Of a DNA stretch of 24,000 bases, positions 3,574 through 23,900 are shown in pieces. The DNA comes from Pyrinomonadaceae bacterium (GTDB lineage Bacteria > Acidobacteriota > Blastocatellia > Pyrinomonadales > Pyrinomonadaceae), in contig DASTTB010000015.1 of the NCBI GenBank assembly GCA_035760365.1, positions 255,161 to 279,160 of the forward strand. Reading direction: 5' to 3'. The notes below the pieces were generated by a model, which did no database searches, had not been told where the DNA came from, and was given only the letters and a program-made list of their open reading frames with translations. The position numbers and the translations under genes are program-made. Position 1 is the stretch's first letter, and the number at the start of each line of letters is the position of its first letter.

Positions 3574-5100
3574 TTACGACGACTCGCCACTCGGTTCGAG
3601 AAATAATCCTAATTCAGAGAACGCGGGACAAACCGGCGCTTGCGTTACACGCAGACGAATCTTCGTCGTTGTCACGGGTTTTCCCCGCAGCAGCCTGCAA
3701 TTCCCGACGCTGGTTCCGCGACCAGACTCCTGCCAGCCGTTGTCGTTCCAGACATCAAGCGCAAACGCTTCGACTCTTTGACCAAGCGGAAGATGTTCGC
3801 GCAGGCGAACGACGTTGAATGTTTGCTCGCGAGCGAGTTGCAGAATTAACTCGGGCGACTTCAGCTCATCATCCGTAGTCCAGTACGTATCGCGCCGGCG
3901 ATCGATGACGTTTCGCGCGGGGAAACCGCTGCGCGTGTTGCTCGCACTGACGCGCGCGCCCTGCGCGAGGTCTTGCGCAAACGTCGCGTCGAGAATACGA
4001 CGAAACTCACGCAGCGAATTCACGTCCGCGCCAGGAATTTGGCCGCGACGATCGGGCGCGAGGTTGAGCAAAAAAGAAGCGCCGCGACCGACGGACGAAT
4101 AGTAAAGATCGACGAGTGTCGCCGCGCTCTTGACCTTGTTGTCTTCACTAGCGTGATAGAACCAACCCGGCCTGATCGAAACGTCGCACTCGGCCGGCAC
4201 CCAATGCGTCCCCGGACGATCGCCGCGATTCAGCCGCGCTTCATCAGCTCGACCCGGCGCGAAGTCATCTTTATTCAGCGTGGACCAACACGGATCGCCC
4301 GCGATTCCTTTTTCGTTACCTACCCAGCGCACGTCCGGACCAGCGTCACTGAAAAGACAGGTGTCAGGTTGGAGCGTCCGCACGAGGTTCCACGTCGTGG
4401 GCCAATCGTAATAGGTGTCGCGATCGATCTTGCGCGTCTCGCGAGCGCCGCCGTAATAGCCGTCGCCGCCGTTCGCGCCGTCGAGAAAGATCTCGAACAC
4501 AGGACCACACGACGTCAGCAGTTCGCGCAGTTGATTGCGAAAGTAGATCAGGTATTCAGGACGGCCGTAATCTTTGTGGTTGCGATCCCACGGCGAAAGA
4601 TAGACGCCGAACTTCAGTCGATGCTTCCGGCAAGCGGCGGCAATCTCCTTCACGACGTCGCCGCGGCCGTTTCGCCACGGACTGTTCTTTACTGAATGCT
4701 CCGTGTATTTGGACGGCCAGAGACAGAACCCGTCGTGATGCTTGCAGGTCAGGATCAAACCTTTCATTCCCGCGGCGGCGGCCGTCGCCGCAATCTGATC
4801 GGCGTCAAAATCAGTCGGGTTGAAGAGCGACGGCGACTCGTCGCCGTAACCCCATTCCTTGTCAGTGAAGGTGTTGATCGTGAAATGGATGAATCCGTAA
4901 AACTCCATTTCATGCCAGCGAAGCTGTCGCTGTGAAGGTACGGGTCCGTACAGCGACGGTGGCCGAACCCTCGCGGCGCTCGCGATAGCTGAAGTGCCGA
5001 TCCAACCCGCCGCAACGGCGAACGACGACCGTTTCAGCAGTCTCAGAAACTCGCGGCGATCCTGATCGACGATTTTTCGACTCATTAAATCCCTAAACAT
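3574..5100 (-). CDS. Alpha-L-fucosidase (GH29) with a Tat-type signal and a C-terminal F5/8 type C (discoidin) domain
   Basis: 508-aa ORF. Twin-arginine motif DRREFLRLL. GH29 core HHDGFCLWPSKYTEHSVKNSPW, FGVYLSPWD and EIFLDGANGG. The C-terminal NVIDRRRDTYWTT...IRLRVTQ reads as discoidin-like. An alternative start ATG at 5085 (MSRKIV) is preceded by AGGGA and may be the true start. Confidence 0.9.
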   Translation of the reverse strand: MFRDLMSRKIVDQDRREFLRLLKRSSFAVAAGWIGTSAIASAARVRPPSLYGPVPSQRQLRWHEMEFYGFIHFTINTFTDKEWGYGDESPSLFNPTDFDADQIAATAAAAGMKGLILTCKHHDGFCLWPSKYTEHSVKNSPWRNGRGDVVKEIAAACRKHRLKFGVYLSPWDRNHKDYGRPEYLIYFRNQLRELLTSCGPVFEIFLDGANGGDGYYGGARETRKIDRDTYYDWPTTWNLVRTLQPDTCLFSDAGPDVRWVGNEKGIAGDPCWSTLNKDDFAPGRADEARLNRGDRPGTHWVPAECDVSIRPGWFYHASEDNKVKSAATLVDLYYSSVGRGASFLLNLAPDRRGQIPGADVNSLREFRRILDATFAQDLAQGARVSASNTRSGFPARNVIDRRRDTYWTTDDELKSPELILQLAREQTFNVVRLREHLPLGQRVEAFALDVWNDNGWQESGRGTSVGNCRLLRGKPVTTTKIRLRVTQAPVCPAFSELGLFLEPSGESS

Positions 5101-5109
5101 AAGCCATTC

Positions 5110-5136
5110 TCGAAAAACGGAGAAACGTTTTTTCGA
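5110..5136. promoter_or_regulatory. AT-rich near-perfect palindrome in the divergent intergenic region (possible operator or 5'-UTR hairpin)
   Basis: tcgaaaaacg-gagaaa-cgttttttcga has a one-base length difference between the A and T runs. It lies 10-36 nt upstream of the fucosidase start and about 90 nt upstream of the 5227 gene. Confidence 0.3.
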
Positions 5137-5180
5137 TTTCTATCATTTCTTAATGAGGGATAAGAGTAGTGTAGAGACAC

Positions 5181-5209
5181 TTGTATACTTGCGAGTTTCG
5201 CCATAGGAT
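5181..5209 (+). promoter_or_regulatory. Candidate sigma70-like promoter for the 5227-10714 cluster
   Basis: TTGTAT (5181-5186), a 17-nt spacer, then TAGGAT (5204-5209). This would leave only a ~10-nt leader before ATG 5227, which fits the absence of a well-spaced SD there. Motif match only. Confidence 0.25.
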
Positions 5210-5226
5210 CACGCGTAAATCAAGAG

Positions 5227-5526
5227 ATGTCGACGTTACGTGTAGATCTGCAAGAAGGGTTCAACGGCGATGAGGTAGATTTGCGCGTGAATGGTCAGGA
5301 GGCGTTTCAAAAAGGAGACGTTACGACTAAACAACTCCTTGGCCTCGCCTCGTCGGCGGAAATCGAAGTGCCGAACGGAACGGTAACGATCGAGATTAAA
5401 GTCCCAACGCAGAACCTCGCAAAAACGATATCGCTCGAGGCCTCGGGGTCGGAATACCTTGGAGTCTCAATCACGAACGGAAAAATCGAGCATATCGTGT
5501 CCCGCGAACCATTTGGTTACGCCTAA
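5227..5526 (+). CDS. Small hypothetical protein (99 aa), predicted beta-rich, no signal peptide
   Basis: Intact ORF with alternating-polarity strands (VTIEIKVPTQN, YLGVSITNGKIEHIV). It is co-directional with and 93 bp upstream of the metzincin-like gene. I recognise no family. The SD is weak or absent. Confidence 0.55.
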   Translation: MSTLRVDLQEGFNGDEVDLRVNGQEAFQKGDVTTKQLLGLASSAEIEVPNGTVTIEIKVPTQNLAKTISLEASGSEYLGVSITNGKIEHIVSREPFGYA

Positions 5527-5619
5527 GTAACCCTGGTTACGGTCTTGTAGACTCGCTCTACTTCCTCCTAACCGAGTAATCACAAGCTCTCTTAACCCTA
5601 ATAAGAGGTAAAAAAACGA

Positions 5620-7905
5620 ATGCATTCACCCCTAAATGTGCCGGTCGCTAATCCTTCCGGCGGAAATCCGTCACCAGCGAGTGTCGAGTTCATGGTCAGC
5701 GGAAGATACGAAGGCGAAATGTCCGCGCCGACAACCGGACTCGATCTTCTAGATCTGCGCATCGACGTAGATCGAAGTTACGCAAACTCGCCGATCATGA
5801 ATCGCGTGAGCGGCGACTTTTACCAGTTGAACAAGATCACTGTTCCCGGTTCCCCGCCGCTTGTTTCGAGAGTCTTTAGAGAGTCGTGGATCGTGAGCGC
5901 GCCCGAAGTTACGCGACACGCCGACCAGGTGACGATCACGGGCTCCGTCGAGTTCTGGAAAGGCATACATCCGCCAACCACTCTGCAACTCGTGATTAAG
6001 AGTCCCGAAGCAGGCGTGGCCCAGATCGCGGAGGTGTCGTTTATTTCAGACGGGGGTCAACCCGCGCTGTACAACTGTCTCCGGAAATCGGACGCGTTTC
6101 GTGACCTCGATCTCGAAATCGACGTCTGCGGGTCAGTCAATCACGCGCCGGTTCTGCCCGAAATCCTCACGACGGATCATCCGGTGCGTCCCGGCGGCAC
6201 GGCGCAGCGAGTGCTGACGATCGAAGAGTCGTATCGAGAAGCGGGTGTGCTCGTTTCAATCGCACCAACTCACGACGTCATCGACGATTCGCATCCGCAG
6301 TTTGATGCGTGGTCGGCGGCGGAACTGCACGACGTGATGGAGAAAAACTTCAGCAGGATCGGCGGCGTGTGGCCGCAGTGGTCCATGTGGGGGTTGTTAG
6401 CCGGTACCTACAATGAGCCGCTTGTAGGCGGCATCATGTTCGACGCGGCTGCCGCGTTTGGCGGAGCAGGTTCAGCGCCGGAACGACAAGGCTTCGCGAT
6501 CTTCAGAGAACACCAGTGGTTCGATTTCCTCACCACGCGTCCGCCCGCAAACAAGGATCAGGCTGCGGCTGCACGCCAGTATTTGTATACATGGCTGCAC
6601 GAGGCCGGTCACGCGTTCAACCTTCTTCACTCGTGGAACAAGAATCGGCCCGACGCGCTTTCATGGATGAACTACGCGTGGAAATACGACAACCTTCACG
6701 GCACCGACAGTTTCTGGTCCAACTTCAATTTCAGGTTTGACGACGAGGAGTTGATCCATCTTCGTCACGGCGATCGTGCCTCCGTGATCATGGGAGGAGA
6801 TCCGTGGGCGTCGGGCGGTCACATGGAAGCGCCGCCGGGAGCAGAGTATCTCGCCGTCCCTCCGAGCGCGCTCTCGACGATCGACGGCGACGTGCCGCTC
6901 GAGTTGTTGATTCGATCCAAAGGTTACTTCGAGTTCATGGAACCGGTCGCGATCGAGTTGAGACTAAGAAACCTGCTGCCGAACCTGCCGCTCAATCTCG
7001 ACACGCGACTGAGTCCAGAATACGGCGGCGTCGTGATCCACATTCGACGTCCCGATGGCCGCATCATCGAGTATGCGCCCATCATGTGCAAACTCGCGAT
7101 TCCCGACTATAGAACGTTGTATCCATTGAGTGGTGACTCCGAACGCGGCGATGATCGCTACAGCGAAGAGGTCGTTTTGAGTTACGGCCGCTACGGTTTT
7201 TACTTCGACGAACCCGGAGAATACCTGCTCCGCGCGCTTTACCAGGGTGCCGGCGACCTTCTCATTCCCTCGAACGTTCACCGCATCCGAGTCGGAACTC
7301 CGCTCACGAGAGACCTGGACATCACCGCTCAGGATTATTTCTCTTACGAGGTGGGAATGAACCTGTACCTCGAAGGCTCTCGCTCGGAGTACCTGAGAAA
7401 AGGATTCAACGTGATGAAGGACATGAGCGAGAAATACAGCGATTCGCTACTCGGAGCGAAGTTAGCAGCGACAGTGGCGAACAGTCTCACGAAGCCGTTC
7501 TTCAGCGTTGAGCCCACAGACGCGTATCCCGAGACACGCGAAAAGCTCTTAACAAAAACGCATGACGCCGATCCCCAAGCAGTTCTGGAAATGACGGCTT
7601 CCGCCGTTGACCTCATTCGAAAGCGCAACGAAAAAGCGCTCAACCTTTCGTACCGGCAGATTGTCGGCCAGCGTGTTCATTGCCTCGTGTCACTGGAGCG
7701 AAATGAAGACGCGCGATCCGAAATCAACCAACTGTACGAAGACCTTCAAAATACCGGCGCCAATCCACCAGTTCTCCGGCAGATCCGTGCCTTCGCCGAC
7801 GAAGTCGATACAGCAGGAACGACTCGCGCTCAAAAGCTTTGGGAACGGGTCCGCGCACAAGATCGCAAAGTTGAAAAAACCCAGAAACAACAACGGAACC
7901 AATAA
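5620..7905 (+). CDS. Metzincin-like zinc metalloprotease, large multidomain, no signal peptide
   Basis: 761-aa ORF. HEAGHAFNLLH (6598-6630) has metzincin HExxHxxGxxH spacing with Asn in place of Gly. SWMNY (6661-6675) resembles a Met-turn. A beta-sandwich-like middle region and a helical Lys/Arg/Gln-rich C-terminus follow. AAGAGG lies about 11 nt upstream of the ATG. Confidence 0.85.
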   Translation: MHSPLNVPVANPSGGNPSPASVEFMVSGRYEGEMSAPTTGLDLLDLRIDVDRSYANSPIMNRVSGDFYQLNKITVPGSPPLVSRVFRESWIVSAPEVTRHADQVTITGSVEFWKGIHPPTTLQLVIKSPEAGVAQIAEVSFISDGGQPALYNCLRKSDAFRDLDLEIDVCGSVNHAPVLPEILTTDHPVRPGGTAQRVLTIEESYREAGVLVSIAPTHDVIDDSHPQFDAWSAAELHDVMEKNFSRIGGVWPQWSMWGLLAGTYNEPLVGGIMFDAAAAFGGAGSAPERQGFAIFREHQWFDFLTTRPPANKDQAAAARQYLYTWLHEAGHAFNLLHSWNKNRPDALSWMNYAWKYDNLHGTDSFWSNFNFRFDDEELIHLRHGDRASVIMGGDPWASGGHMEAPPGAEYLAVPPSALSTIDGDVPLELLIRSKGYFEFMEPVAIELRLRNLLPNLPLNLDTRLSPEYGGVVIHIRRPDGRIIEYAPIMCKLAIPDYRTLYPLSGDSERGDDRYSEEVVLSYGRYGFYFDEPGEYLLRALYQGAGDLLIPSNVHRIRVGTPLTRDLDITAQDYFSYEVGMNLYLEGSRSEYLRKGFNVMKDMSEKYSDSLLGAKLAATVANSLTKPFFSVEPTDAYPETREKLLTKTHDADPQAVLEMTASAVDLIRKRNEKALNLSYRQIVGQRVHCLVSLERNEDARSEINQLYEDLQNTGANPPVLRQIRAFADEVDTAGTTRAQKLWERVRAQDRKVEKTQKQQRNQ

Positions 7906-7930
7906 GGGTCCCCACCTGAGGAGTAGAACG

Positions 7931-10714
7931 ATGCCCGATACGAACGACCAACTTGAAGACGTAATTAAAAAGTACAGCAAGAACGATCCCGAGCTTTACG
8001 AAGAATTGAAACGCAAAATGGCCGCGGTCGAACCTGTTGCCGCGGCTAAATCTCTCGACATAGGCGTTGCCGCCGCTCTGCCTCCCGTCAGCGAACCCGG
8101 CGGCGCCGAACTAGCAGAAGCCGTCGGCCTGGAGACGATCGTGCGTCGCCAGGCGCGGCCCGTACTCGTCATTCGCGACAACCAAACCACGATGGAGTTT
8201 CTTGGACCAGACAGTGAAGTCTGGCGATCGCGACTCAACGACGCGAAACCGATTCTGGATCAAATCATACCCGCCATCGGACGCGTGGAAGTAACAAATC
8301 ATCCGGACTTCGACTGGGTCGGAACCGGTTGGCTTGTTGCCGACGACATCATCGTCACGAATCGTCACGTCGCGCAGGAGTTCGCGCGCCGCGGTATGAA
8401 CGGTTTCACGTTTCGGCCCGGCATCAACGGCGGTCCGATGACTTCGCGCATCGACTTTCTCGAAGAAGACCAGCGGTCCGACAGTCTCGAGTATGCCGTG
8501 AGCTCGGTTCTGTTTATCGCTTCGCTAAACGAACCGGACGTCGCCTTCATGCGACTGACACGACCGCAGACCAGCCGGCCACTGCCGCCGCCGATCGTGC
8601 TTGCGGACTCGATAACGGGCGACGAGTTTATCGCGACGATAGGCTATCCCGCGCGCGATTCACGCGTGCCCGATCAGGATCTCGTGCTCAGAGTGTTTGG
8701 CGATGTGTACGAGAAGAAACGGTTAGCGCCCGGAACGATCATCAGTGTCACGGCCGACGAGCTGCAACACGATTGTTCAACGCTCGGCGGTAACTCCGGT
8801 TCGCCCGCGATCGATCTCAGTACCGGACGTGCCGTTGGTCTGCACTTCTCGGGCTTGTTCATGCAAGCGAATTTCGCGGTGCCTGCGCCGAGGGTGCGTG
8901 AGTTGCTCACTCGCGTTCAGCGTGGAGAAGCCGCGATCGCCTCCGTGGGCGCCAATGGACACAACGGAAACGCACACAAAGCGCCCGCAACGTCGACAGG
9001 ACCAGTCGTTTCGGCAGGAACCAACACGTTCACCATGCAACTCAATGTGCCGATCGAAGTGACGGTGAAAGTCGGCGCCGCGACGGCTGGACCATCTCCG
9101 CAGATCACCACCACCGCACCCGCGCTGAATGGCGATCAGTTTGAATCGGCATTGAAAGCGGCGCGCGAGGCGTTTGCCGGCGATCCCGACATCACCGAGA
9201 TCCGCTTGGGCTATCGATTCAAACGAGGCTGGATCACCGACGAACGTGTCGTGGTCGTCGAGACCCGAAACAAGATGACCGCAACCGAGTTGGCGGCGGC
9301 AGGAAAGCAAGCACTCCCGTCACAGATTCTCGGCGTCGGCGTTGACGTTCGCACCGCGGCGTTAAGAGATCAACTCGAGTCGATGGGCGTGGACATGTCG
9401 TTTTTGGAAGCGCCCGCGCGTCCCGGCCGTTATCGTGAGCCGTCCAACGTGACTCTCGATCGGGTAAACGAACAGATGCGTGTTGTGTTTCACGTCAGCC
9501 CCGATTCCGGTTTCCCAAATCTGCGGAAGTTCCTGGGCCGCGTGCGCCAACACATGACCGCGACGATGTATGAATGGGAACCGAATCACATCAGCGACGC
9601 GATCGAAGCGGCGATGTCAGGCGCAGGTAAGTCGCTGCGCATGGTGACGCAGCGCCAGGGAACCCGCGAAGCTGTTGAAGATATGCAGCAACGTCTCGGT
9701 GCGAAGTTCAAACATGTGTGGGCGTCTGTCGGCGCGGGTAAACTCATCCCGTCCGCGTATCACATCAAGGTCGCGTCGCGCGACGGTGAAGAGATCTGGC
9801 TGTCGAGTGGAAACTGGAAAGACTCGAACCAGGCCGACATCGATCCCGCCGGTACGAACTCAACCAATATCGCGCCTCTTCGCGAACATAATCGCGAATG
9901 GCACGCCGTGATCGAGAATCGAAAACTTGCGACTATCTTTCAGAAGTTCATTGAATTCGATTTTCGCGAAGCTGAACGTGTGCCCGCTGACGAAGGTCTC
10001 GAGTTGACGCTACCGGACGTGTTCGTTCCCGAAGCGGCATTCATGGAAGACGTCGAACGAAGAACGCCGATCGATTTCTTCGACCCACTCGAACGCGATC
10101 GCGTGTTCGACATCCAACCGCTGTTGACGCCGGATCGCAACTCACAGGGCCAGCGCCTGTACCTCGAACATGCCATCGACATGATCAGGCGCGCGGAGAG
10201 ACGCATCTATGTCGAGAACCAGTCGTTCAACTTGCTTGACGAAGAGAACAACAACGAAGAGTTCGTTGAATTCTTCCAGGCGCTGCGCGAAAAACAGGAA
10301 GACGGTCTTGATGTTCGCATCATCTTCCGCGACGCGCGCGAGTTTGGCGCCAGCAATGGTCCAAAACAGCAGAAGCTGCTCGAGCGGTTGAAAGAGTTCG
10401 GCATCGACACTGACTCCATCAAGGTCCAGAGACGGTGTCACACGAAAGGCATCATCATCGACGGCGAGGAAGTGATGCTCGGAAGTCACAACCTGACTAA
10501 CCAGGGCAGCTTGTTCAATCGCGATGCAAGTCTTCTCGTGCGTGACGCTGAGGTCGCCAGGTACTTCGAAAAGATCTTCCTGTTCGACTGGAATAATCTG
10601 GCGACTCAGGAGACCGACGAGTTGGTAGGTGGAATGCGTGTCGCGTTGCCGACAGAAGCAACACCCGCCGGTTTCCGTCGGGTGTCGCTTTCGGAGTTGC
10701 TGGGCGAAAGCTGA
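7931..10714 (+). CDS. Fusion protein: N-terminal trypsin-like serine protease plus C-terminal phospholipase D superfamily domain with two HKD motifs
   Basis: The ORF-track frame opens at 7607 but overlaps the upstream gene. ATG 7931 is preceded by GAGGAG 8-9 nt upstream and lies 25 bp after the upstream stop, giving 927 aa. Protease triad: TNRHVA (His 8366-8368), EPDVAF (Asp 8537-8539), GGNSGSP (Ser 8795-8797). HKD1 is YHIKVASRDGEEIWLSSGNW (His 9761-9763). HKD2 is CHTKGIIIDGEEVMLGSHNLTN (His 10439-10441). No signal peptide or TM segment is seen. Confidence 0.9.
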   Translation: MPDTNDQLEDVIKKYSKNDPELYEELKRKMAAVEPVAAAKSLDIGVAAALPPVSEPGGAELAEAVGLETIVRRQARPVLVIRDNQTTMEFLGPDSEVWRSRLNDAKPILDQIIPAIGRVEVTNHPDFDWVGTGWLVADDIIVTNRHVAQEFARRGMNGFTFRPGINGGPMTSRIDFLEEDQRSDSLEYAVSSVLFIASLNEPDVAFMRLTRPQTSRPLPPPIVLADSITGDEFIATIGYPARDSRVPDQDLVLRVFGDVYEKKRLAPGTIISVTADELQHDCSTLGGNSGSPAIDLSTGRAVGLHFSGLFMQANFAVPAPRVRELLTRVQRGEAAIASVGANGHNGNAHKAPATSTGPVVSAGTNTFTMQLNVPIEVTVKVGAATAGPSPQITTTAPALNGDQFESALKAAREAFAGDPDITEIRLGYRFKRGWITDERVVVVETRNKMTATELAAAGKQALPSQILGVGVDVRTAALRDQLESMGVDMSFLEAPARPGRYREPSNVTLDRVNEQMRVVFHVSPDSGFPNLRKFLGRVRQHMTATMYEWEPNHISDAIEAAMSGAGKSLRMVTQRQGTREAVEDMQQRLGAKFKHVWASVGAGKLIPSAYHIKVASRDGEEIWLSSGNWKDSNQADIDPAGTNSTNIAPLREHNREWHAVIENRKLATIFQKFIEFDFREAERVPADEGLELTLPDVFVPEAAFMEDVERRTPIDFFDPLERDRVFDIQPLLTPDRNSQGQRLYLEHAIDMIRRAERRIYVENQSFNLLDEENNNEEFVEFFQALREKQEDGLDVRIIFRDAREFGASNGPKQQKLLERLKEFGIDTDSIKVQRRCHTKGIIIDGEEVMLGSHNLTNQGSLFNRDASLLVRDAEVARYFEKIFLFDWNNLATQETDELVGGMRVALPTEATPAGFRRVSLSELLGES

Positions 10715-10773
10715 TAGCTAACAGCCGAGAGTTGATCGCCTGAACAGGCGAGAGCTGATTACCCGGCGATTCG

Positions 10774-10914
10774 CACATCAAGACCGCCATCACAGCGGCT
10801 ATGCCGCCGGATGTGAGGCGAGGCTACGCCTCGCCGTTGGTTTTGTTGGATTAGGGGCTACGCCCCTTAGCGGGAACAGGAGGGCATAGCCCAAGTTTGA
10901 TTAGGGACCTACCG
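10774..10914. repeat. Copy 1 of a ~141-bp structured direct repeat (chain of GGC-NNN-GCC hairpins)
   Basis: It differs from 11075-11217 by two 1-nt indels and one substitution. It contains local hairpins ggcgaggc-tac-gcctcgcc (10817-10835), aggggc-tac-gcccct and gcggc-tat-gccgc. The segment 10804-10819 is a perfect 16-bp inverted repeat of 10930-10945. Confidence 0.85.
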
Positions 10915-10929
10915 GCAGGGCTGAGCCCT

Positions 10930-10953
10930 GCCTCACATCCGGCGGCGGAGCCG
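10930..10953. repeat. Right-hand inverted-repeat arm closing the copy-1 element
   Basis: gcctcacatccggcgg (10930-10945) is the exact reverse complement of 10804-10819. The match extends imperfectly to 24 nt. It is preceded by the hairpin ggcagggc-tga-gccctgcc (10914-10932). Confidence 0.75.
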
Positions 10954-11001
10954 CGGTGAGTTATGTGACTGTCACCAAACGAAATTTAGGAAGTTCGCGG
11001 C

Positions 11002-11098
11002 GGCTTCGCCCATCGATACCCGATCATTCCCAGCGGCTTCGCACATCGATACCCGGTCATTCGCACCGGCTACACACATCAAGACCGCCCATCACAGC
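11002..11098. repeat. Three tandem ~33-bp units leading into repeat copy 2
   Basis: ggcttcgcccatcgatacccgatcattcccagc (11002-11034), ggcttcgcacatcgatacccggtcattcgcacc (11035-11067) and ggctacacacatcaagaccgcccatcacagc (11068-11098). Copy 1 carries only one hybrid unit, around 10755-10798. Confidence 0.75.
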
Positions 11099-11217
11099 GG
11101 CTATGCCGCCGGATGTGAGGCGAGGCTACGCCTCGCCGTTGGTTTTGTTGGATTAGGGGGCTACGCCCCTTAGAGGGAACAGGAGGGCATAGCCCAAGTT
11201 TGATTAGGGACCTACCG
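11075..11217. repeat. Copy 2 of the ~141-bp structured direct repeat, lacking the right inverted arm
   Basis: 143 nt, near-identical to 10774-10914. It ends 22 nt before the stop codon of the TonB-dependent receptor gene. No counterpart of 10930-10945 follows it. Confidence 0.85.
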
Positions 11218-14791: not shown

Positions 14792-14962
14792 TCAAAGAAA
14801 CTCGGATACTCGCGTTTGATGAGCGTATTTCTTGATGACGTCGGCGGCGGCGAGCGCATTCTCAAATCGACCTGCCTGTAACTCACTTAGTACCCGCTCG
14901 AGCGGATCCGTTGTTTGCGCGTTCGCAAACTGACAAACGAACAGCAGGAGAGACGCAACCAT
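14792..14962 (-). CDS. Possible 56-aa ORF with a signal-peptide-like N-terminus (below the ORF-track cutoff); may be a gene remnant
   Basis: Hand translation gives MVASLLLFVCQFANAQTTDPLERVLSELQAGRFENALAAADVIKKYAHQTRVSEFL*. It lies in the 382-bp gap upstream of the TonB receptor gene. I saw no clear SD. Confidence 0.25.
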   Translation of the reverse strand: MVASLLLFVCQFANAQTTDPLERVLSELQAGRFENALAAADVIKKYAHQTRVSEFL

Positions 14963-15826: not shown

Positions 15827-17011
15827 TTATGCAATTCGACTGCATTTGTTAAGGTCGTCTTGCAGCGGTACCCCATTGAGGCATAACAGTCGGTAGGTTC
15901 GTTCGATAGTGTCTCGGTCCGCGTGCCACACGGTAGACGGGATCTTGAGCACGTTACAGACCTCCGCTACTGCTCGCATTCCCTTTTGCCACGAATCGTC
16001 GAACTCGGAAACCGCTGCGCGCGAGAACAATCCCGCTATCTTCCATGCCTCCAAGTGCGCGTTTTCCAGACGAATGCTGGGGTGTGGATGTGATTGCAGC
16101 ATTCCGGGATGCGGATTCACGCCAACGGATGGAATCTCGCGACTTCTTTCCTGCCCGAAAAGCACAAACGTGAACGCCATCGCAATGGACCACACGCGAA
16201 GCGCCTCACCAGCGGATTTGAAAATACTTTGCGGACCATACAAAGCTGAGAACCACTCGTTTACAGTGAATACCACAGCGAAAGAGTCCGCCTGAAGTTC
16301 GATCACCTGGCTTGGAATTGCAGGAAGCTGGCATGGTCCAGTCTCATCGACAAACGGTCCGAAGTCTTTTCGAATCTTTCTTGCGAACTTGTCGTGCCCC
16401 AGACACCAATGTCCGATCTCGTGAAAGAACACGAAGTCGAGGGCGAACATCGTGAGGTATCCGGCAAAGACGGCGCGTTCGCCTTTCGCCAATGTCGCGC
16501 CACTGCCTTTCGGCAAAGACTGAAGCGCGGCGCCGACAGACAAGTTCCAGTTCCACGCTGAAAGATCGTCAAACCACTTGACCTGCTTGTTCGGTTCTCC
16601 GACGTCCGGAAGTACCTCGGGATGCGACAACAGAACCTGGAAAAAGTATCCCAGGTCCCAAACGGCCCCCGTAAAGACGCCGATGAACGCCGATTTCCGT
16701 ATTCCCGTAACCGCTGCGTTTAAATGCGGATTGTCTACCAAATCAACGTACGCTGAACGAAGCGCGCGTGAGTAAAGACCGCCGCGCTGCATCTTTCGCA
16801 GGTAGTCCCAGTAACGTCGCTTGAACCAACCGGGAAGAAGCGCCGCGTTATCCTCCGGTTTGATGTTGTACCTGCCGCCAAAGGGTTCGAAGAACTTTTT
16901 GAATAGAGCCCCGCGGAGTGGCATTCGCGGAACGGCGGAAGCGTCGTAGGCCGGGAACCACGGATCAAAAACAAATTGTGAGGTCACTTCGTTTGCCGGC
17001 ATTTCATTCAC
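15827..17011 (-). CDS. Hypothetical protein with an ImmA/IrrE (M78)-like HExxH metalloprotease motif
   Basis: 394-aa ORF. FFHEIGHWCLGH (His197 codon at 16421-16423) is followed about 37 residues later by IELQADSFAV, resembling the HExGH...E.xA[ND].FA pattern of COG2856/M78 peptidases. GTG start at 17011; alternative ATG at 17002. Confidence 0.75.
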   Translation of the reverse strand: MNEMPANEVTSQFVFDPWFPAYDASAVPRMPLRGALFKKFFEPFGGRYNIKPEDNAALLPGWFKRRYWDYLRKMQRGGLYSRALRSAYVDLVDNPHLNAAVTGIRKSAFIGVFTGAVWDLGYFFQVLLSHPEVLPDVGEPNKQVKWFDDLSAWNWNLSVGAALQSLPKGSGATLAKGERAVFAGYLTMFALDFVFFHEIGHWCLGHDKFARKIRKDFGPFVDETGPCQLPAIPSQVIELQADSFAVVFTVNEWFSALYGPQSIFKSAGEALRVWSIAMAFTFVLFGQERSREIPSVGVNPHPGMLQSHPHPSIRLENAHLEAWKIAGLFSRAAVSEFDDSWQKGMRAVAEVCNVLKIPSTVWHADRDTIERTYRLLCLNGVPLQDDLNKCSRIA

Positions 17012-18711: not shown

Positions 18712-20913
18712 CTACCAACGCTTCGCGGCAATGATGTATAACCGGCTGGCGGTCGCGACGTAAAGTGAATCGCCGTTCACGGTCGGACGCGAATAGAGCG
18801 GCGCATCCATCTGAATCTCACCCAGCAATTCCTTTTTGCGTCCCGCACGAAGAACGGTCATAAGTCCTTCAGCGTTTCCAACGTAAAGGCGATCGCCCGC
18901 GAGCAGGAAACATCCCCAGATCGCATCGTTCGTCTCGTGCTTCCATAGATGCGCGCCGGTGACAGCGTCAAGACAATGAACGGTTCCGCTCAAGTCGCCA
19001 ACATACAGCAGACCATCCTTTACGATCGGCGTTCCCACCACGCGGCCGACTTGGGATGAACGCCACAAGAGCCCGCTCTTCGTAACGTCGCCCTGGCCGT
19101 TGGGACTGACGGCGTAAACAAACGACGGCGCATTGCCGTGCCCCGGAGATTGGCCCATCGCGATGAAGACACGGCCGTCGGCGAAGACGGGCGAAGCGAT
19201 GATCGAACTACGCGAAAACACACCCGGACGTGGAAGAAAGCGCGCGTCTTTCGGATTGCCGTCAAAGCGCCATACTTCCTGCCCCGACACACCATCGAAA
19301 GCGCGCAGCACACCGTCTCCACCGCCGTAGAACACCTGAATACGCCCGTTGACGTTGCCCGCCGCGGGACTGGCCCAGTCGCCGTGCAGCACACGATCTC
19401 CGGCTCCGATCGCACGCCAGACGACTTCGCCCGAGTGCTTGTTCACCGCGATCAGGTTTGGAGCGCGTGGCGATGGAACGCGCGTGTGGCCTTCATTCTG
19501 TCCGTTTGAAGTACCGACGACGAGCAGATCACCCAGCGGCAACACTTCACTGTTGCACGCTTCGTGAGGAAAGACTCCGAGCGCGGGCATGTCGACTTGC
19601 CAGATGATGTCGGCGGCTGCGTTGTCTTTGAAGACCTCGTCGCGATATGGACCATCGTTTTCGCCGTCGCCGAAACCTTTCGTGTCGAGAGAACGGAGTT
19701 GACACTCGGCGTTGACGTAGTACAGGCGATCGCCTTCGACGTAAGGAACGCTTGTCGTCGAAGGCAAAAGGAACTCTCTCAGGCCGCGTCGCGCGACTCG
19801 CGGGGCCACGTCCTGCCAAAGGAACGCGCCGTCCGTCACGCGAAACGCCATGAGCACGCCTGCGTCATCCTGAAACGCGGGATTCATTTGCCGCGTGTTG
19901 TCAGTGCCGACATAAACCACAGCGCCGGCGACGACCGGACTGCCATACACTTCGTTTCCCAACTCGACGCTCCAGACGATGTTTCGCCCCGTGTTTGTAT
20001 CCCAGTCAACGGGAGGATTGCCGGTTTGCGTGACGATCGTCTGGAGTTGGATCGAAGGCACTGGCGCGTTGGTTGGGGCGACAGAGTTTGCGGATTCGAT
20101 TCCGGCGATGCGGTTCAACGCCCACTCGACTTCGTGACGCAGTACGGGATCCTTTGCGGCTGCTTTCAGTGGTTCCTGGGCTGAGCGAGCCTTCGGCCCG
20201 ATGCTTCCAAGCGCCCCGGCCGCGCAGATGCGAACATACAGAAACTCATCCTTCAGCGCTTCGATCAGTTGAGGCACCGCCGGCGCCGCGCCTGGGCCAA
20301 TGGTTCCGAGAGCTTCACCTGCGGCCCAGCGGACGCCGGGCGTCGGATCGCTCAACGCTCTAGCGAGATCCTTAGTCGCCGCGACTGCTTTCGGACCGAT
20401 GGATGCCAACGCCTCCGCCGCGTAAATGCGAACGTGTGGTTCCTCATGCGAGAGCGCATGGACCAGGGCGCGTACCGAAGGACTCGCCTTGTCACGCAAC
20501 GCGCCGAGTGCACGTGCGGCATCGGCTGCAACCATCGAATCTTCGTCTCTGAGCGCGCGTCTCAACGCCGGTTGAACTGAAACCGAATCGGGCGCGAGAT
20601 CGATAAAAGCATCAGCGGCAAAGCGCCGGAAAGAGACCTGCTGATGACGAAGGAGTTCCAGCAGCAACGGAATTGCGGGTGGACCGATCTGGCGAATGAT
20701 TTCAAACGTCTCCTCGTGAAGCGCGTCGTCGTCGGTGTTGAGGAATCGTCTGAGTAAAGGCAACGAACGCACGCCGTCATGGACGAGCGCGGCTTCGGCG
20801 GTTGTGCGGATCTTCGCGTCGTTGGACATCAGACGATCTGCCCAACGTTTGGTTTGCGCGACTGATTGGATCGGAAGAATAAGCAGCAGCGTGAAGATAA
20901 AGACGTGTCGCAT
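18712..20913 (-). CDS. Secreted HEAT-repeat plus PQQ-like (BamB-like) beta-propeller protein
   Basis: 733-aa ORF. Signal peptide MRHVFIFTLLLILPIQSVAQ. HEAT/PBS-lyase-type repeats (VRIYAAEALASIGPKAV, VRWAAGEALGTIGPGAAPAVPQLIEAL, VRICAAGALGSIGPKA). Repeated propeller blades follow (VVYVGTDN, GEVVWRA, LYVGDLSGTVHCLDAVTGAHLWKH). It starts 6 nt after the upstream stop. Confidence 0.85.
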   Translation of the reverse strand: MRHVFIFTLLLILPIQSVAQTKRWADRLMSNDAKIRTTAEAALVHDGVRSLPLLRRFLNTDDDALHEETFEIIRQIGPPAIPLLLELLRHQQVSFRRFAADAFIDLAPDSVSVQPALRRALRDEDSMVAADAARALGALRDKASPSVRALVHALSHEEPHVRIYAAEALASIGPKAVAATKDLARALSDPTPGVRWAAGEALGTIGPGAAPAVPQLIEALKDEFLYVRICAAGALGSIGPKARSAQEPLKAAAKDPVLRHEVEWALNRIAGIESANSVAPTNAPVPSIQLQTIVTQTGNPPVDWDTNTGRNIVWSVELGNEVYGSPVVAGAVVYVGTDNTRQMNPAFQDDAGVLMAFRVTDGAFLWQDVAPRVARRGLREFLLPSTTSVPYVEGDRLYYVNAECQLRSLDTKGFGDGENDGPYRDEVFKDNAAADIIWQVDMPALGVFPHEACNSEVLPLGDLLVVGTSNGQNEGHTRVPSPRAPNLIAVNKHSGEVVWRAIGAGDRVLHGDWASPAAGNVNGRIQVFYGGGDGVLRAFDGVSGQEVWRFDGNPKDARFLPRPGVFSRSSIIASPVFADGRVFIAMGQSPGHGNAPSFVYAVSPNGQGDVTKSGLLWRSSQVGRVVGTPIVKDGLLYVGDLSGTVHCLDAVTGAHLWKHETNDAIWGCFLLAGDRLYVGNAEGLMTVLRAGRKKELLGEIQMDAPLYSRPTVNGDSLYVATASRLYIIAAKRW

Positions 20914-20919
20914 TGTTCA

Positions 20920-23900
20920 TTAGCGTGCGTCGCCGATCAGCGCAAAGCCGGCCCAATAATATGGATGTTGAGTCTCGGCTAATCGCCGAACCGACAAAAC
21001 GCTTTGATGTAAAGCGCGACCTTTGGACACCGGACTCTTGATAGAAGAATAAAATTCATTGAAAAGCGTCGATTGTGTTCGCGATTCAACCTGCCAACGA
21101 CTCACCAACGTCGCACGCGTGCCCGCCACAAACCATCCCCACGAAAAACCAACCGCAGCCTCGCCGCTGATGCCGGGTTTCGACTGCGCCGTCGATAAAA
21201 CAACGAGCTCGGCACTCGATGGCAGATTCATGATTTCACGAATCTGGAGAAACCCGTCTTGCCCGTCTCGTTCGCCTGTCGCAGACGAGAGCCCGATAAA
21301 CGACGACATCGGACTGGCGTCATCCAAAATGGCAGGCCCAGCGAAATGCATGATCTTTGCTCGCGAAATATCAGATTTCACCTGCTCTTCGTTTGCTTTC
21401 GGACCGACAGACAGGTGGGTTGTCGTTGGACCATAGGCCGTCGCGATACGCCTGAGCTCTTCTTCCTGCGCGGGAGACGATTCCAGCTTTACCCCGGCGT
21501 GAGCGAGCTCGGATCGAGTCGTAAACTCTTTCGACAACTCCGGATTTCCATACGCGAACAAATTGAGCCGCCCAACCGGCCCTGGAAGCGCCGGCTTTCT
21601 CATCTCACGCAGCGCCGAAAGCGATGGCGCGTACGAGACCTGCCTGTGGTCCACTACATACTGCTCCTCATCAGGTTGCAACGCTTCGAATGGCAAATGC
21701 CAAAGCATACCGTCGGGCACAAAGATCAGTTTCGACTTGAGCGCGATCTGGTCCTCCGCCGGCTTTACCAGCAACTCGTAGAGTTCGCGCGCGAGTTCAT
21801 CAAAGTTATCGGCGCGTGAGCTGAGTAATTGCTGAAACTGTCGCACTCTTGAGGCGAGTTGATTGTGTCTGATTTCCAGCGGATAAACTTTCAGATTGAT
21901 CTCGAACTGCCGTTTTCTTTGCGGGTTCTTTCCGGCAGCCTTGTCGGCGGTTAAGACGAACAGGTACGTGTTGTTCTCAGTGATCGTATATTCGAGAAGC
22001 GCCGTTGACGTGTCCGTGATCAGTAAACGCAGGTCGTCCAGTTTGAGTGGCGGCAGCTCACCGCGAATGATTTTCAAACCCGGATTGACGGTGAACACTT
22101 TCTGGCGAAACTCAGCGTACGACGCGCGAGCCCTTCGCAACTTGTCGCGCAGTTCGAGCCTTCGTGTTTCATTCGATAACCGTCGTTCTTCTTCACGATC
22201 GAGTTGAATTTGAAGCGAAGCAACCTCACCCGATAAACGTTGCTCCTGGCGACGCTGTTCGACGGAGAGCCCTTTCTGAGGAGTGACGTTGTTGTTCTTC
22301 AGTAGATCGATCAGCGATTGCGTCTTCGCACGTTCTGCATATTGAAACGCCTCGCTGGGACGATGCTGGTCCATCAAAAAGTCGATTGCGGCCAGATACG
22401 GCAACGTTCGGTTGTGATCGCCGATCCCTACGGCGGGCGATTCCGACCGGAGCGATTCCACCGTTGCGATCGCACCGGTCAACGCGCTGTACGCCTGCGG
22501 TCCATTTTCCAACTTTGCATGGGCCTTGCCCGCCAGCATCCGCGCGTACCATTGAAGTTCGCTGTTACCGAGACCTGTCGCGATCGTTACCGCGCTCTCG
22601 GCAGCGTTAAGCGCCTTTGTAAAATCCTTCTGAAGTAGAAACGCCTCAGAGACTCGCGTCAAAACTTCCGCCATTCTTTCCTGTTTACCAACAGACTTGA
22701 ACAAGCCGAGTGCTTTTTCGAAACTGTCTAACGCGTCGGAGTAATTCTTCTGGCGCAGGAGCGTAGAACCGATGCCGGCGAGCACGTCGCCCTGCCCCGA
22801 CTGGTCGTCCATCGCTTCACGTAACGCGAGGGCTTGACGGTACGAACTGAGCGAGGAGTCGTACGAAGCCTGTCGATAATAAACATTGCCTATCAGGGTC
22901 AGGACGCGCGCCATCTCGATCTTGTTTGATGTGGCTTCAAACTCTTTCAGCGCCTTGTCGTAGTAGATAAGCGCCTGGGCGTAGTCGCCCTGCAAAGCTC
23001 TGACGAAACCGATGCTGGCAAGAGTGGTGCCGATAGGAGCTTTGATCGTCTCGGCGATACTCAGGCTGTTGAGGTAATTCTCGAGCGCCGCGCCATAATC
23101 ACCGCGAGCGCGATGCACGTTGCCGATTCCCTTGAGCGCTGTGGCGAGACCGAGTTTGTCAGGTTGGGTTTTCTGAACTTCGAAACTGCGTTGATAGTTT
23201 TCGAGCGCCTCGTCGTAATTGCCCATGTAGTAGGCCGAATTTGCGGCGCCGTTCAGGGCTGCGATGGTCGCGCCGATTTCAGATCTGCCGGCTTGATCGA
23301 GCGACTTCTTGTAGAAACTCAATGCTTGCGTGTAGTCGCCCTGCATGTATAGAGCGTCGGCCAGGCGCACGACCGAATCGGAGTTGCTGTTTGCTTCAGC
23401 GCTCTTACGGAAAGCTGCGGCGGCGGCTGAATAGTTTCCCTGTCCATAATGGATCGTGCCGATCATGTTCAGGGTGTTGGCTACTTCGCGGTCGTCGCCG
23501 AGTGAGGTGAACTCCTGCAACACCTGCTGCAAAGCGGCGAGTGCTTCTGTGTCACGACGTTGCTCTTTGTAAATCAAAGCGAGGCCGGAGAGTGCTTTTG
23601 CTGATTCGTAAGGATTAGTAACCTCGGTGAAGAGGTCGCGCGCTTTTTGGTAGTGCTCCAACGCGGCCGGATAGTTCGCTTGAAAATAGAAGACAGTGCC
23701 GATGTCGAGGGACGCTGTCGCAACGCCTTCTTTATCGCCGATTTGCTCGGAGATATTTTGGGCGACTCCGTAGATATCGAACGCCGTTGAGTATCGCCCG
23801 GCCATCAATTGAGAGTGGCCTTGCCTGATCAGGGCTTTACGCAAATCAGGCGTCATCAGAGATTGATGTCTAGCAAGTAGCTGCTCGCGCTCTTCGGGAG

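What the first reader, a model, noticed from the sequence alone, without database searches (positions are those of the whole stretch)
5227..10714. Candidate undescribed three-gene cytoplasmic module: small beta-rich protein, metzincin-like protease, and a trypsin-like protease fused to a two-HKD PLD-family domain
Three co-directional ORFs are separated by 93 and 25 bp, each with its own SD-like sequence or a short leader. An AT-rich divergent intergenic region with a palindrome bounds the cluster upstream; a 525-bp repeat-filled region bounds it downstream. The flanking genes (fucosidase, TonB receptor) are functionally unrelated. None of the three products shows a signal peptide or TM helix, so two different protease classes and a PLD-type phosphodiesterase would act inside the cell. 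Protease-gated or protease-coupled effectors are a recurring logic in bacterial conflict systems, for example caspase-like CHAT effectors, the Lit metalloprotease and IetAS. PLD-family domains serve as nuclease or lipase effectors, for example DISARM DrmC and type II Mokosh. I cannot match this gene combination to any named defence or toxin system from memory. The defence reading is inference. A proteolytic maturation pathway for a PLD enzyme is an alternative.
Basis: partly seen in the sequence, partly recalled or inferred. Interest (0 to 1): 0.85.

Follow-up and report, generated by a model that had tools for sequence, protein, structure and literature searches.

The report
Two separable protease modules, one operon
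The three genes are real and probably co-transcribed here, but across genomes they split into a widespread, unannotated intracellular zinc-protease-plus-small-partner pair and a self-contained protease-fused PLD enzyme that resembles predicted protease-triggered nuclease "suicide" effectors.

Summary
There are three co-directional ORFs: A (5227-5526, 99 aa), B (5620-7905, 761 aa) and C (7931-10714, 927 aa). No terminator-like hairpin lies between them and none has an export signal. [quoted passage not shown] B has an invariant HExxHxxNxxH motif and belongs to a large family with no Pfam model. A is a confidently modelled eight-strand beta-sandwich.

The three-gene-system reading is only partly supported. 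A sits next to B in 41 of 46 loci across about seven phyla. C follows B in only 3 of those 46, all Pyrinomonadaceae. Nine C loci with 8-kb flanks on both sides lack A-B. One of them, L080, is syntenic with the window but lacks exactly the A-B cassette.

C's protease half is about 40% identical to trypsin-NucA fusions of a predicted "NucA-trypsin" conflict system. Homologues of its PLD half recur fused or adjacent to trypsin, subtilisin, caspase and astacin-like proteases on rhizobial plasmids.

Best reading: C is a protease-coupled PLD effector, a new variant of a known kind. A-B is an independent protease module recruited upstream in this lineage. All functions are inferred, not tested.

The parts
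5110..5136 (.). Palindrome (TCGAAAAACGGAGAAACGTTTTTTCGA) in the 36-40% GC divergent intergenic region. It is a candidate promoter or operator shared with the fucosidase gene.
   Evidence: The same sequence lies directly upstream of C in the syntenic locus L080.
5204..7915 (+). The A-B cassette. This 2.7-kb block is present here and absent, with clean junctions, from the syntenic locus L080.
   Evidence: blastn of the window against L080 and reading of the junction sequences.
5227..5526 (+). Gene A: a 99-aa standalone beta-sandwich and the dedicated partner of B.
   Evidence: AlphaFold pLDDT 91.3 with eight strands. Foldseek returns only generic beta-sandwich matches. A is adjacent to B in 41 of 46 loci.
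5620..7905 (+). Gene B: a 761-aa intracellular multi-domain zincin. It has an N-terminal beta domain (about residues 28-157), a catalytic region (about 160-415), a beta-sandwich (about 420-560) and a helical C-terminal region (about 564-760).
   Evidence: No Pfam, NCBIfam, PADLOC or PHROG family matches the window protein.
6598..6630 (+). Zinc-binding motif HEAGHAFNLLH in B (His327, Glu328, His331, Asn334, His337).
   Evidence: Invariant in 51 sequences that go down to 21% identity. hhalign aligns it to HEFGHAIGMIH of astacin-like M12 proteins.
7931..10714 (+). Gene C: a 927-aa fusion of a trypsin-like protease and a two-HKD PLD domain. Module 1 spans about residues 1-403 and module 2 about 403-927.
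8300..8854 (+). Trypsin-like (S1) domain of C. The catalytic triad is His146 (8366), Asp203 (8537) and Ser289 (8795).
   Evidence: Pfam Trypsin_2 and Trypsin. The triad is invariant. The nearest solved relatives are V8-type Glu-endopeptidases, E 1e-6.
9473..10600 (+). PLD-superfamily domain of C with two HKD motifs: His611/Lys613/Asp618 (from 9761) and His837/Lys839/Asp844 (from 10439).
   Evidence: Pfam PLDc_2 in two stretches. The motifs are invariant. The best profile matches are DrmC, DpdK, NucT and MitoPLD/Zucchini rather than cardiolipin synthase.

Best explanation
The locus holds two separable units that were joined into one operon in a Pyrinomonadaceae lineage.

Unit 1 is gene C, a self-contained cytoplasmic protein. 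An N-terminal trypsin-like serine protease module is fused to a two-HKD PLD-superfamily module of the Nuc/DrmC/Zucchini type. I read it as the PLD-bearing counterpart of the predicted 'NucA-trypsin' conflict systems and of the experimentally shown trypsin-nuclease pairs. On this reading it is a latent phosphodiesterase, most likely a nuclease, whose activity is released or controlled by proteolysis, either by its own protease domain or in trans. It would act as a cell-suicide or anti-invader effector.

Unit 2 is the A-B pair: a zinc protease of about 750 aa from a large unannotated family with a metzincin-like active-site motif, plus its dedicated 99-aa beta-sandwich partner. The partner is probably a regulatory or inhibitory subunit. 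This pair usually lives without C.

In this lineage the A-B cassette sits exactly between C's promoter/operator and C's ribosome-binding site. B may therefore act as an extra upstream protease on C here, but C does not require it.

Shown: the gene structures, the invariant catalytic residues, the linkage statistics, the modular homologies and the indel. Inferred: proteolytic activation, nuclease substrate, the defence role and the role of A.
For: **Separability**
- A accompanies B in 41 of 46 loci with a close B homologue, across about seven phyla. C accompanies B in 3 of those 46.
- Nine C-anchored loci with 8-kb flanks on both sides have no A or B.
- L083, whose B is 77% identical, has A-B without C.
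- L080, whose C is 91% identical, matches the window on both flanks at 89-93% nucleotide identity and lacks exactly 5204-7915.
- In a neighbour-joining tree of C, loci with C alone are nested among loci with the trio at three places.

**C as a protease-coupled effector**
- The catalytic triad and both HKD motifs are invariant.
- Residues 18-403 are 40-44% identical to plasmid-borne Trypsin_2 + Endonuclease_NS fusions. That architecture is System 3 of Kaur et al. 2020 (PMC7159879).
- PLD-half homologues occur as separate proteins next to S8 peptidase and CHAT genes (L091, L092) and next to a PDC-S45 trypsin on an integrative element (L079).
- Full-length C-like modules sit in clusters with caspase and astacin-like M12 genes (L085, L086, L088).
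- L081 has an EAD1-trypsin gene and a further EAD1 protein within 3-7 kb downstream of C.
- The PLD half scores best against DrmC (3e-12) and DpdK, not cardiolipin synthase.
- Trypsin-activated pro-nucleases are experimentally established (PMC12799240).

**B as a zincin**
- HExxHxxNxxH is invariant.
- Divergent family members give weak hits to Reprolysin_3/4/5, M10, M66 and M43.
- hhalign against an astacin-like M12 alignment gives E 4e-4.
Against: - No experiment exists on any member of either family. No named defence system matches beyond single-domain level.
- The window's neighbours are ordinary metabolic and transport genes, and several C loci also sit in metabolic contexts.
- C has no recognisable sensor domain, so the trigger is unknown.
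- The trio persists as a tight block in at least four different flanking contexts (window, L004, L073, L082). A metzincin also sits upstream of C-like genes on two plasmids. A real B-C functional link in this lineage therefore cannot be dismissed.
- The catalytic region of B was not modelled with confidence (pLDDT below 50), and a Met-turn was not established.
- Nuclease versus lipase activity of the PLD half cannot be decided from sequence.
Confidence: 0.55

Rival explanations
1. A, B and C form one functional cascade. A holds B inactive. On a trigger, B cleaves C or C's protease domain, and this unleashes the PLD effector. Loci with C alone or A-B alone would be degenerate forms or would work with partners encoded elsewhere.
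For: - The genes are spaced 93 and 25 bp apart with no strong intervening terminator-like hairpin.
- The block is kept in at least four different flanking contexts in Pyrinomonadaceae, and five more metagenome contigs are inferred from matching contig lengths.
- Non-orthologous M12 metzincin genes lie upstream of C-like genes on Bradyrhizobium and Pararhizobium plasmids.
- The PLD module is generally associated with proteases.
Against: - 43 of 46 A-B loci lack C, and nine well-flanked C loci lack A-B.
- The syntenic locus L080 keeps an intact 927-aa C without A-B.
- The tree indicates at least three independent decouplings.
- A-B has other recurrent neighbours, such as tyrosinase.
Confidence: 0.2
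2. These are ordinary cellular enzymes with no conflict role. C would be a phospholipid- or polyphosphate-type PLD enzyme with a maturation or quality-control protease domain. A-B would be an intracellular peptidase with a chaperone, used for protein turnover or nutrient peptide processing.
For: - The window context is metabolic: fucosidase, an outer-membrane receptor, ADH.
- In Micrococcaceae, A-B lies in a conserved chromosomal context next to a Tex-like gene (my reading of the translation) and an SF1 helicase.
- Several C loci are in metabolic neighbourhoods.
Against: - The PLD half scores far below the cardiolipin-synthase cut-off (13.7 bits against 290) and scores better against DrmC, DpdK and Nuc-type models.
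- The distribution is patchy, yet identities across phyla are 53-65% for C and 44-55% for B.
- C's protease module is shared with NucA-endonuclease fusions on conjugative plasmids.
- Some C loci carry integrase, toxin-antitoxin and EAD1 neighbours.
Confidence: 0.15
3. The proteins are exported toxins or effectors that use a non-classical route, for example contractile-injection or type VI cargo, or polymorphic-toxin-like delivery. They would act on competitors rather than inside the producer.
For: - PLD-type enzymes are known type VI effectors (general knowledge).
- L081 has a phage-sheath gene about 6 kb from C, and L074 has an RHS/Ntox28 gene near A-B.
- The tyrosinase and 728-aa neighbours of A-B carry Tat or Sec signals.
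Against: - No signal peptide or recognisable delivery domain was found in 120 homologues each of B and C.
- No immunity-like gene is conserved next to C.
- Secretion-system genes are absent from most loci.
Confidence: 0.08

Closest known systems
'NucA-trypsin' conflict system (System 3 of Kaur, Burroughs, Iyer and Aravind 2020, eLife, PMC7159879). It is predicted computationally and has not been tested.
   Same: A trypsin-like peptidase is fused to or paired with a nuclease-type effector. C residues 18-403 are 40-44% identical to the protease half of Trypsin_2 + Endonuclease_NS fusions on Agrobacterium and Rhizobium plasmids. Extra proteases (S8, CHAT) and EAD1-trypsin genes occur nearby in related loci. 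The proposed logic is a proteolytic cascade that deploys the effector.
   Different: The effector here is a two-HKD PLD domain, not NucA. The terms PLD and phospholipase D do not occur in that paper. In the window there is no S8, EAD1 or STAND gene. The host is an acidobacterium rather than an alphaproteobacterium. An unrelated zincin + beta-sandwich pair lies upstream.
Trypsin-MBL nuclease-protease pairs in Hachiman, AVAST, Lamassu and DRT (Science 2025, PMC12799240; bioRxiv 10.1101/2025.09.03.673762 and 10.1101/2025.11.14.688446).
   Same: A trypsin-like protease is coupled to a latent nuclease-superfamily effector that is activated by cleavage. PADLOC protease-containing models ('nacht' PDLC03010 at 3e-11, RT-Protease_XI) match C's protease domain.
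   Different: In those systems the nuclease is MBL-fold and is always a separate upstream gene, and the protease is fused to a sensor such as HamA, Avs or LmuA. C fuses the protease directly to a PLD domain and has no known sensor. PLD is not mentioned in those papers.
PLD-family defence nucleases: DISARM DrmC, Dpd DpdK, Mokosh MkoB/MkoC, and Nuc/NucT.
   Same: All have an HKD phosphodiesterase domain. The best profile matches of C's second HKD half are DrmC (3e-12), DISARM_DrmC_I (4.5e-10) and DpdK (2.4e-6).
   Different: Scores are far below the family cut-offs (39.5 against 133; 27.2 against 100). C has two HKD motifs in one chain plus a protease. None of the partner genes of those systems is in the window.
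Metzincin clan peptidases (astacin M12A, reprolysin M12B, matrixin M10, StcE M66, M43), compared with B.
   Same: The zinc motif HExxHxxxxxH with the third histidine is invariant. Weak hits to these families occur in up to 9 of 48 divergent members. hhalign against an astacin-like M12 alignment gives E 4e-4.
   Different: Asn replaces the clan's conserved Gly in the motif. No Met-turn was established. The window protein reaches no Pfam threshold. B is about 750 aa with flanking beta-sandwich and helical domains, is intracellular, and has a dedicated 99-aa partner.

Membership tests
S1 (trypsin/chymotrypsin-fold) serine peptidases - C, N-terminal half | Profile match above threshold and a His/Asp/Ser catalytic triad | tested here: met
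   Trypsin_2 scores 59.7 bits against a cut-off of 27.6, and Trypsin 23.1 against 20.6. His146, Asp203 and Ser289 are invariant in 15 homologues. PDB V8-type Glu-endopeptidases match at 1e-6.
PLD superfamily - C, C-terminal half | Two HxKxxxxD (HKD) motifs forming one active site | tested here: met
   PLDc_2 scores 84.3 bits in two stretches. H611/K613/D618 and H837/K839/D844 are invariant.
Cardiolipin / phosphatidylserine synthase (housekeeping PLD) | Match to the equivalog model at its cut-off | tested here: not met
   TIGR04265 scores 13.7 bits against a cut-off of 290.
NucA-trypsin system (Kaur et al. 2020, System 3) | Trypsin-like peptidase as a core component | tested here: met
   C's protease module is 40% identical over 398 aa (E 3e-78) to the protease half of a Trypsin_2 + Endonuclease_NS fusion from pTiCFBP5877.
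NucA-trypsin system (Kaur et al. 2020, System 3) | NucA (Endonuclease_NS) endonuclease domain as the second core component | tested here: not met
   C has no Endonuclease_NS match. A PLD domain occupies that position.
NucA-trypsin system (Kaur et al. 2020, System 3) | Additional peptidase paralogues (trypsin, S8), EAD1 or STAND genes in the operon (in a subset of these systems) | tested here: not met
   None is present among the window ORFs. They are present near homologues: EAD1-trypsin in L081, and S8/CHAT in L084 and L091.
Trypsin-MBL nuclease-protease pair | A separate MBL-fold pro-nuclease gene upstream, and a protease fused to a defence sensor (HamA, Avs, LmuA, DRT) | tested here: not met
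   No MBL domain or sensor domain is present in A, B or C. The definition is taken from PMC12799240.
DISARM (DrmC) / Dpd (DpdK) / Mokosh | Equivalog-level match plus the system's partner genes | tested here: not met
   DISARM_DrmC_I scores 39.5 against 133, and DpdK 27.2 against 100. MkoB and MkoC match only over the PLD part. No helicase or methylase partners are in the window.
Metzincin clan - B | Extended zinc motif HExxHxxGxxH/D | tested here: inconclusive
   HExxHxxNxxH is invariant in 51 sequences, but Asn replaces Gly. Only divergent relatives reach weak Pfam hits to metzincin families.
Metzincin clan - B | Met-turn beneath the zinc site and the metzincin fold | tested here: inconclusive
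   hhalign places astacin's SIMHY opposite B's HLRHG, so there is no Met at that position (probability 34%). Conserved Met350 and Met391 are alternative candidates. The catalytic region was modelled at pLDDT below 50.
Protease plus proteinaceous inhibitor pair (serralysin-Inh type) - A-B | The small partner adopts the inhibitor fold and binds the active site | tested here: not met
   A is a generic beta-sandwich. The best matches are the HGSNAT luminal domain and PepT2 extracellular domain (TM about 0.6, E about 1e-3), and no protease inhibitor appears in the top 50. Binding is not testable with these tools.

The most novel reading that the evidence does not exclude
A-B is a portable, intracellular zymogen-activating protease module: a zincin held in check by its beta-sandwich partner. 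Different lineages have wired it to different latent enzymes. In Pyrinomonadaceae it would be the top tier of a two-step cascade (zincin, then trypsin domain, then PLD nuclease) that kills the infected cell. In other Acidobacteriota it sits beside Tat-exported tyrosinases that carry a C-terminal DUF7868 domain where polyphenol oxidases carry their shielding domain. In one protein it is fused to a hemocyanin-type copper domain. That would make it a bacterial analogue of the arthropod prophenoloxidase cascade.
Probability: 0.12. Interest if true: 0.85.

Novelty: new variant of a known kind. Interest (0 to 1): 0.58.

Why it matters
Protease-gated effectors are an active topic in bacterial immunity, and a PLD-type effector fused directly to the trypsin module has not been described in the literature I could search. 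If C works as proposed, it adds a third nuclease superfamily (PLD, after MBL and NucA) to protease-coupled effectors. It would also do so in a single polypeptide that is easy to test.

Separately, B and A define a large family with no Pfam model: about 1,000 clusters at 50% identity with E below 1e-10. The pair is strictly linked across about seven phyla. This intracellular metzincin-like protease has unknown substrates, and the census here gives it a defined partner and candidate clients (tyrosinase, trypsin-PLD).

The natural indel between the window and L080 offers a ready comparison of C with and without A-B.

Tried and rejected
- **Direct family searches of A and B** against Pfam, NCBIfam, PADLOC and PHROGs returned nothing.
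- **A profile of B against PDB sequences** returned only chance helical matches.
- **Structure of B** from 15 sequences left the catalytic region below pLDDT 50. Foldseek then returned only generic Ig- and macroglobulin-like beta-sandwich hits with TM about 0.1.
- **Is A a paralogue of a domain of B?** hhalign gave probability 0.1%, so I rejected this.
- **Is A related to the N-terminal extensions of the plasmid C-like proteins?** hmmsearch gave E about 1, so I rejected this too.
- **Viral contigs**: no B homologue, and only a PLD-only relative of C.
- **Metagenome scan with C** returned only 8 loci, because the patterns came from a single sequence.
- **Conserved partner next to C**: none is general. 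Only two lineage-specific recurrences appeared.
- **Rfam** found nothing in the window.
- **Literature searches** for a trypsin-PLD fusion found nothing.
- **Artefacts set aside**: the ORF 'L014_626' was an antisense artefact of the tyrosinase gene. The ferritin-like and peroxidase neighbours of B were singletons.


Full report
**1. What is in the sequence.**
- Three co-directional ORFs lie at 5227-5526 (A, 99 aa), 5620-7905 (B, 761 aa) and 7931-10714 (C, 927 aa), separated by 93 and 25 bp.
- The mechanical ORF for C starts at TTG 7607 and overlaps B. The ATG at 7931 follows GAGGAG and matches the N-termini of homologues.
- No + strand terminator-like hairpin separates the genes except a weak 5-pair match inside B at 7186-7198. 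The first strong ones lie at 10817-10835 and 11119-11137, inside a repeated element.
- Upstream is a 36-40% GC divergent region with a palindrome at 5110-5136.
- Downstream are two 99-100% identical copies of about 130 nt and three 33-nt tandem units.
- The flanking genes are an alpha-L-fucosidase and an outer-membrane beta-barrel protein with a CarboxypepD_reg domain. The rest of the window holds ordinary metabolic and transport genes plus a TPR-CHAT protein.

**2. The three proteins.**
- *C* matches Trypsin_2 (E 7e-16) and PLDc_2 in two stretches (E 9e-24). In 15 homologues from four phyla, the triad His146/Asp203/Ser289 and both HKD motifs (H611/K613/D618 and H837/K839/D844) are invariant, and identity is 53-73%.
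- *B* matches no family in Pfam, NCBIfam, PADLOC or PHROGs. It does carry an invariant HExxHxxNxxH, kept in 51 sequences down to 21% identity. Among 48 divergent relatives, weak hits go to Reprolysin_3 (9 members), Reprolysin_4 (8), Reprolysin_5 (7), M10 (7), M66 (6) and M43 (2). hhalign against an astacin-like M12 alignment aligns the zinc motif at E 4e-4 with probability 34%. A Met-turn was not established, and the catalytic region was not modelled with confidence. "Metzincin-like" is therefore fair, but membership is not shown.
- *A* is modelled with high confidence (pLDDT 91.3) as an eight-strand beta-sandwich. Its structural matches are generic only.
- A hydropathy test with positive controls found no Sec-type signal or transmembrane segment in the window proteins. 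It flagged at most 1 of 120 homologues each of B and C.

**3. Is the trio a conserved system?**
- A B-anchored scan of one genome per species gave 62 loci. I added loci found by exact-protein look-ups and plasmid searches.
- In a profile-based census of 46 loci with a close B homologue, A is adjacent in 41. A is usually 4-130 nt upstream, sometimes downstream (L005, L033, L089), and in Micrococcaceae 0.5-1 kb upstream across an opposite-strand gene that looks like a CBS-domain protein.
- These loci span Acidobacteriota, Chloroflexota, Actinomycetota, Alpha- and Gammaproteobacteria, Gemmatimonadota and Desulfobacterota. A Myxococcota locus has B only.
- C follows B in only 3 of the 46 loci (L004, L073, L082), all Pyrinomonadaceae with B at 71-75% identity. 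Five further metagenome contigs are inferred from matching contig lengths.
- L083, whose B is 77% identical, has A-B without C.
- Conversely, nine C-anchored loci with 8-kb flanks on both sides have neither A nor B. They include Larkinella terrae, Sphingomonas sp. HMP6 and three Pyrinomonadaceae-type loci with C at 71-91% identity.
- No other gene is generally conserved next to C.

**4. A natural experiment.**
- L080 carries a C that is 91% identical and matches the window on both sides at 89-93% nucleotide identity. The shared genes are the polyketide cyclase, ADH, the CarboxypepD_reg protein, C, the outer-membrane protein, DUF899 and an M48-like protein.
- L080 lacks window 5204-7915 with clean junctions. 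The AT-rich region with the palindrome runs straight into C's GAGGAG and ATG.
- The cassette therefore sits exactly between C's promoter/operator and C's ribosome-binding site, and an intact C is kept without it.
- In a neighbour-joining tree of C (no bootstrap), the C-alone loci L080, L065 and L081 are each sister to trio loci. This implies at least three decouplings within the clade that has the trio.
- The trio is nevertheless found in at least four different flanking contexts, so it behaves as a tightly linked block in that clade.

**5. What C is related to.**
- A tblastn search of plasmids shows that C is modular.
- Residues 18-403 are 40-44% identical to proteins annotated as DNA/RNA non-specific endonucleases on Agrobacterium and Rhizobium plasmids. 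The pTiCFBP5877 protein is Trypsin_2 + Endonuclease_NS, flanked by S8 peptidases and a CHAT protein.
- That architecture is the "NucA-trypsin" System 3 predicted by Kaur et al. 2020. They propose a proteolytic cascade that deploys the nuclease (PMC7159879).
- Residues from about 403 to 927 occur as separate proteins in three settings. One lies next to an S8 peptidase and a CHAT gene (L091). One lies near another S8 peptidase (L092). One lies next to a PDC-S45 trypsin on an integrative element with a serine recombinase, DUF932 and SSB (L079).
- Full-length C-like modules (30-33% identity) form the C-terminal parts of 1374-1788-aa proteins in co-directional clusters. The clusters hold an astacin-like M12 metzincin and a caspase-like protein (L085, L088), an alpha/beta-hydrolase, a caspase and a trypsin (L086), or an amidase, a trypsin and a patatin (L087).
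- L081 has an EAD1-trypsin gene and a further EAD1 protein within 3-7 kb downstream of C, in an island with a Gp49/HTH pair, a phage sheath gene and an integrase. L077 has an integrase and PIN toxin-antitoxin pairs.
- The PLD half scores best against DrmC (3e-12), DISARM_DrmC_I, DpdK, NucT and MitoPLD/Zucchini, and only 13.7 bits against the cardiolipin synthase cut-off of 290.
- Experimental work shows that trypsin-like proteases activate latent MBL nucleases by cleavage in several defence systems. Neither of the two papers I searched by term mentions PLD.

**6. What A-B is.**
- The B profile finds 1459 clusters at 50% identity with E up to 1e-3, 995 up to 1e-10, and 509 up to 1e-30. Nearly all have the same 660-750-aa architecture.
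- A accompanies only the core subfamily: it is found in 0 of 23 loci with a divergent B.
- The neighbours of A-B vary. In Micrococcaceae the context is conserved and chromosomal: a Tex-like gene (my reading of the translation) and an SF1 helicase with an RNase H-like domain. That pattern is not typical of a defence island.
- In seven acidobacterial loci, in two different arrangements, a Tat-signal tyrosinase lies beside A-B. Its architecture is Tyrosinase + PPO1_DWL + DUF7868. One family member, P0338, is fused to hemocyanin-type copper domains.
- Polyphenol oxidases are commonly latent until a C-terminal domain is removed by proteolysis (general knowledge; papers listed).
- This hints that B processes latent enzymes. 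However, B is cytoplasmic and those tyrosinases are exported, so I keep this as a lead only.

**7. Mechanism and verdict.**
- *Shown:* the gene structures, the invariant catalytic residues, the near-obligate A-B linkage, the lineage-restricted B-C linkage, the cassette indel, and the modular homologies of C.
- *Inferred:* C is a protease-coupled PLD effector, most likely a nuclease, activated or controlled by cleavage in its variable 330-405 linker. It would act in a conflict or defence role. A would be a regulatory partner of the B protease. In this lineage B may add an upstream proteolytic step.
- Against known systems, C is a new variant (PLD in place of NucA or MBL, and fused) of predicted or established protease-nuclease modules. 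A-B is an unannotated protease family of unknown role.

Noticed in passing
window 10771-11216: The repeat-filled region is absent from the syntenic locus L080, so it is an insertion or deletion of about 445 bp. It holds two copies of about 130 nt at 99-100% identity, each with a GC-rich terminator-like hairpin (10817-10835 and 11119-11137), three 33-nt tandem units, and a 47-nt inverted repeat. It looks like a MITE- or REP-type element. Rfam has no match.
   Followed up: partly
window 3574-5100 compared with L080 7782-7954: The fucosidase gene is intact in the window. In L080 it is reduced to remnants: only window 3574-3710, 4324-4393 and 5062-5165 still align. The region around C is therefore rich in indels between close relatives.
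   Followed up: partly
window 14820-14826 compared with L080 14450-16422: L080 carries about 2 kb (a 359-aa protein and a 362-aa TPR protein) that the window lacks at this point.
   Followed up: no
L001, L002, L074 (upstream of A); L010, L011, L014, L031 (downstream of B, opposite strand): A Tat-signal tyrosinase with Tyrosinase + PPO1_DWL + C-terminal DUF7868 lies next to A-B in seven acidobacterial loci, in two arrangements. P0338 (1481 aa) is a B-family protein fused to Hemocyanin_M, Hemocyanin_C and Tyrosinase domains.
   Followed up: partly
L001 3970-6153, L002 8009-10330, L074 9343-11529: A conserved protein of about 728 aa with a Sec-type signal peptide and no Pfam or PADLOC match follows B in the 64-65% identity clade, in the position C occupies in the window.
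   Followed up: no
L073 9343-12100: In this trio locus C is called as two genes (a 366-aa Trypsin_2 protein and a 570-aa PLDc_2 protein). The frame changes in the low-complexity linker near residue 351. This is either a sequencing frameshift or a genuine split of the two modules.
   Followed up: no
L085 246-8745, L088 3167-9793, L086 2974-10908, L087 1447-12974 (rhizobial plasmids): These are operon-like multi-protease clusters around C-like trypsin-PLD proteins of 944-1788 aa. They contain signal-less astacin-like M12 metzincins (with the SIMHY motif), caspase-like proteins, extra trypsins, an alpha/beta-hydrolase and a patatin. The terms PLD and phospholipase D do not occur in the four papers I searched by term.
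   Followed up: partly
L079 5826-8318 (IMG/VR contig): A PLD-only homologue of C (531 aa) lies convergent to a 279-aa trypsin that matches the PADLOC candidate PDC-S45 at 1e-99. The element also carries a serine recombinase, DUF932 and SSB.
   Followed up: partly
L064 6529-7914 and L071 6456-7916: A homologous protein of about 460-490 aa with no Pfam match lies immediately upstream of C, on the same strand, in two loci (Sphingomonas sp. HMP6 and a metagenome contig). It may be a lineage-specific partner of C.
   Followed up: no
window 20920-23856 and 18712-20913 (- strand): A 978-aa TPR + CHAT (caspase-like) protein lies next to a HEAT + PQQ beta-propeller protein. A TPR-CHAT gene also lies near the trio in L073.
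   Followed up: no
window 15827-17011 (- strand): This 394-aa protein has only a weak Peptidase_M48 match (E 7e-5). Its L080 orthologue is recorded in precomputed annotations as Peptidase_U49, which I recall to be the Lit family (not checked here). Neither the current Pfam copy nor PADLOC confirmed that.
   Followed up: partly
L015 9231-9665 and the other Arthrobacter / Paenarthrobacter loci: In Micrococcaceae, A and B are separated by an opposite-strand gene whose translation looks like a CBS-domain pair (not scanned), and a 1200-1300-aa RNase_H_2 + SF1 helicase gene follows B in a conserved chromosomal context.
   Followed up: no
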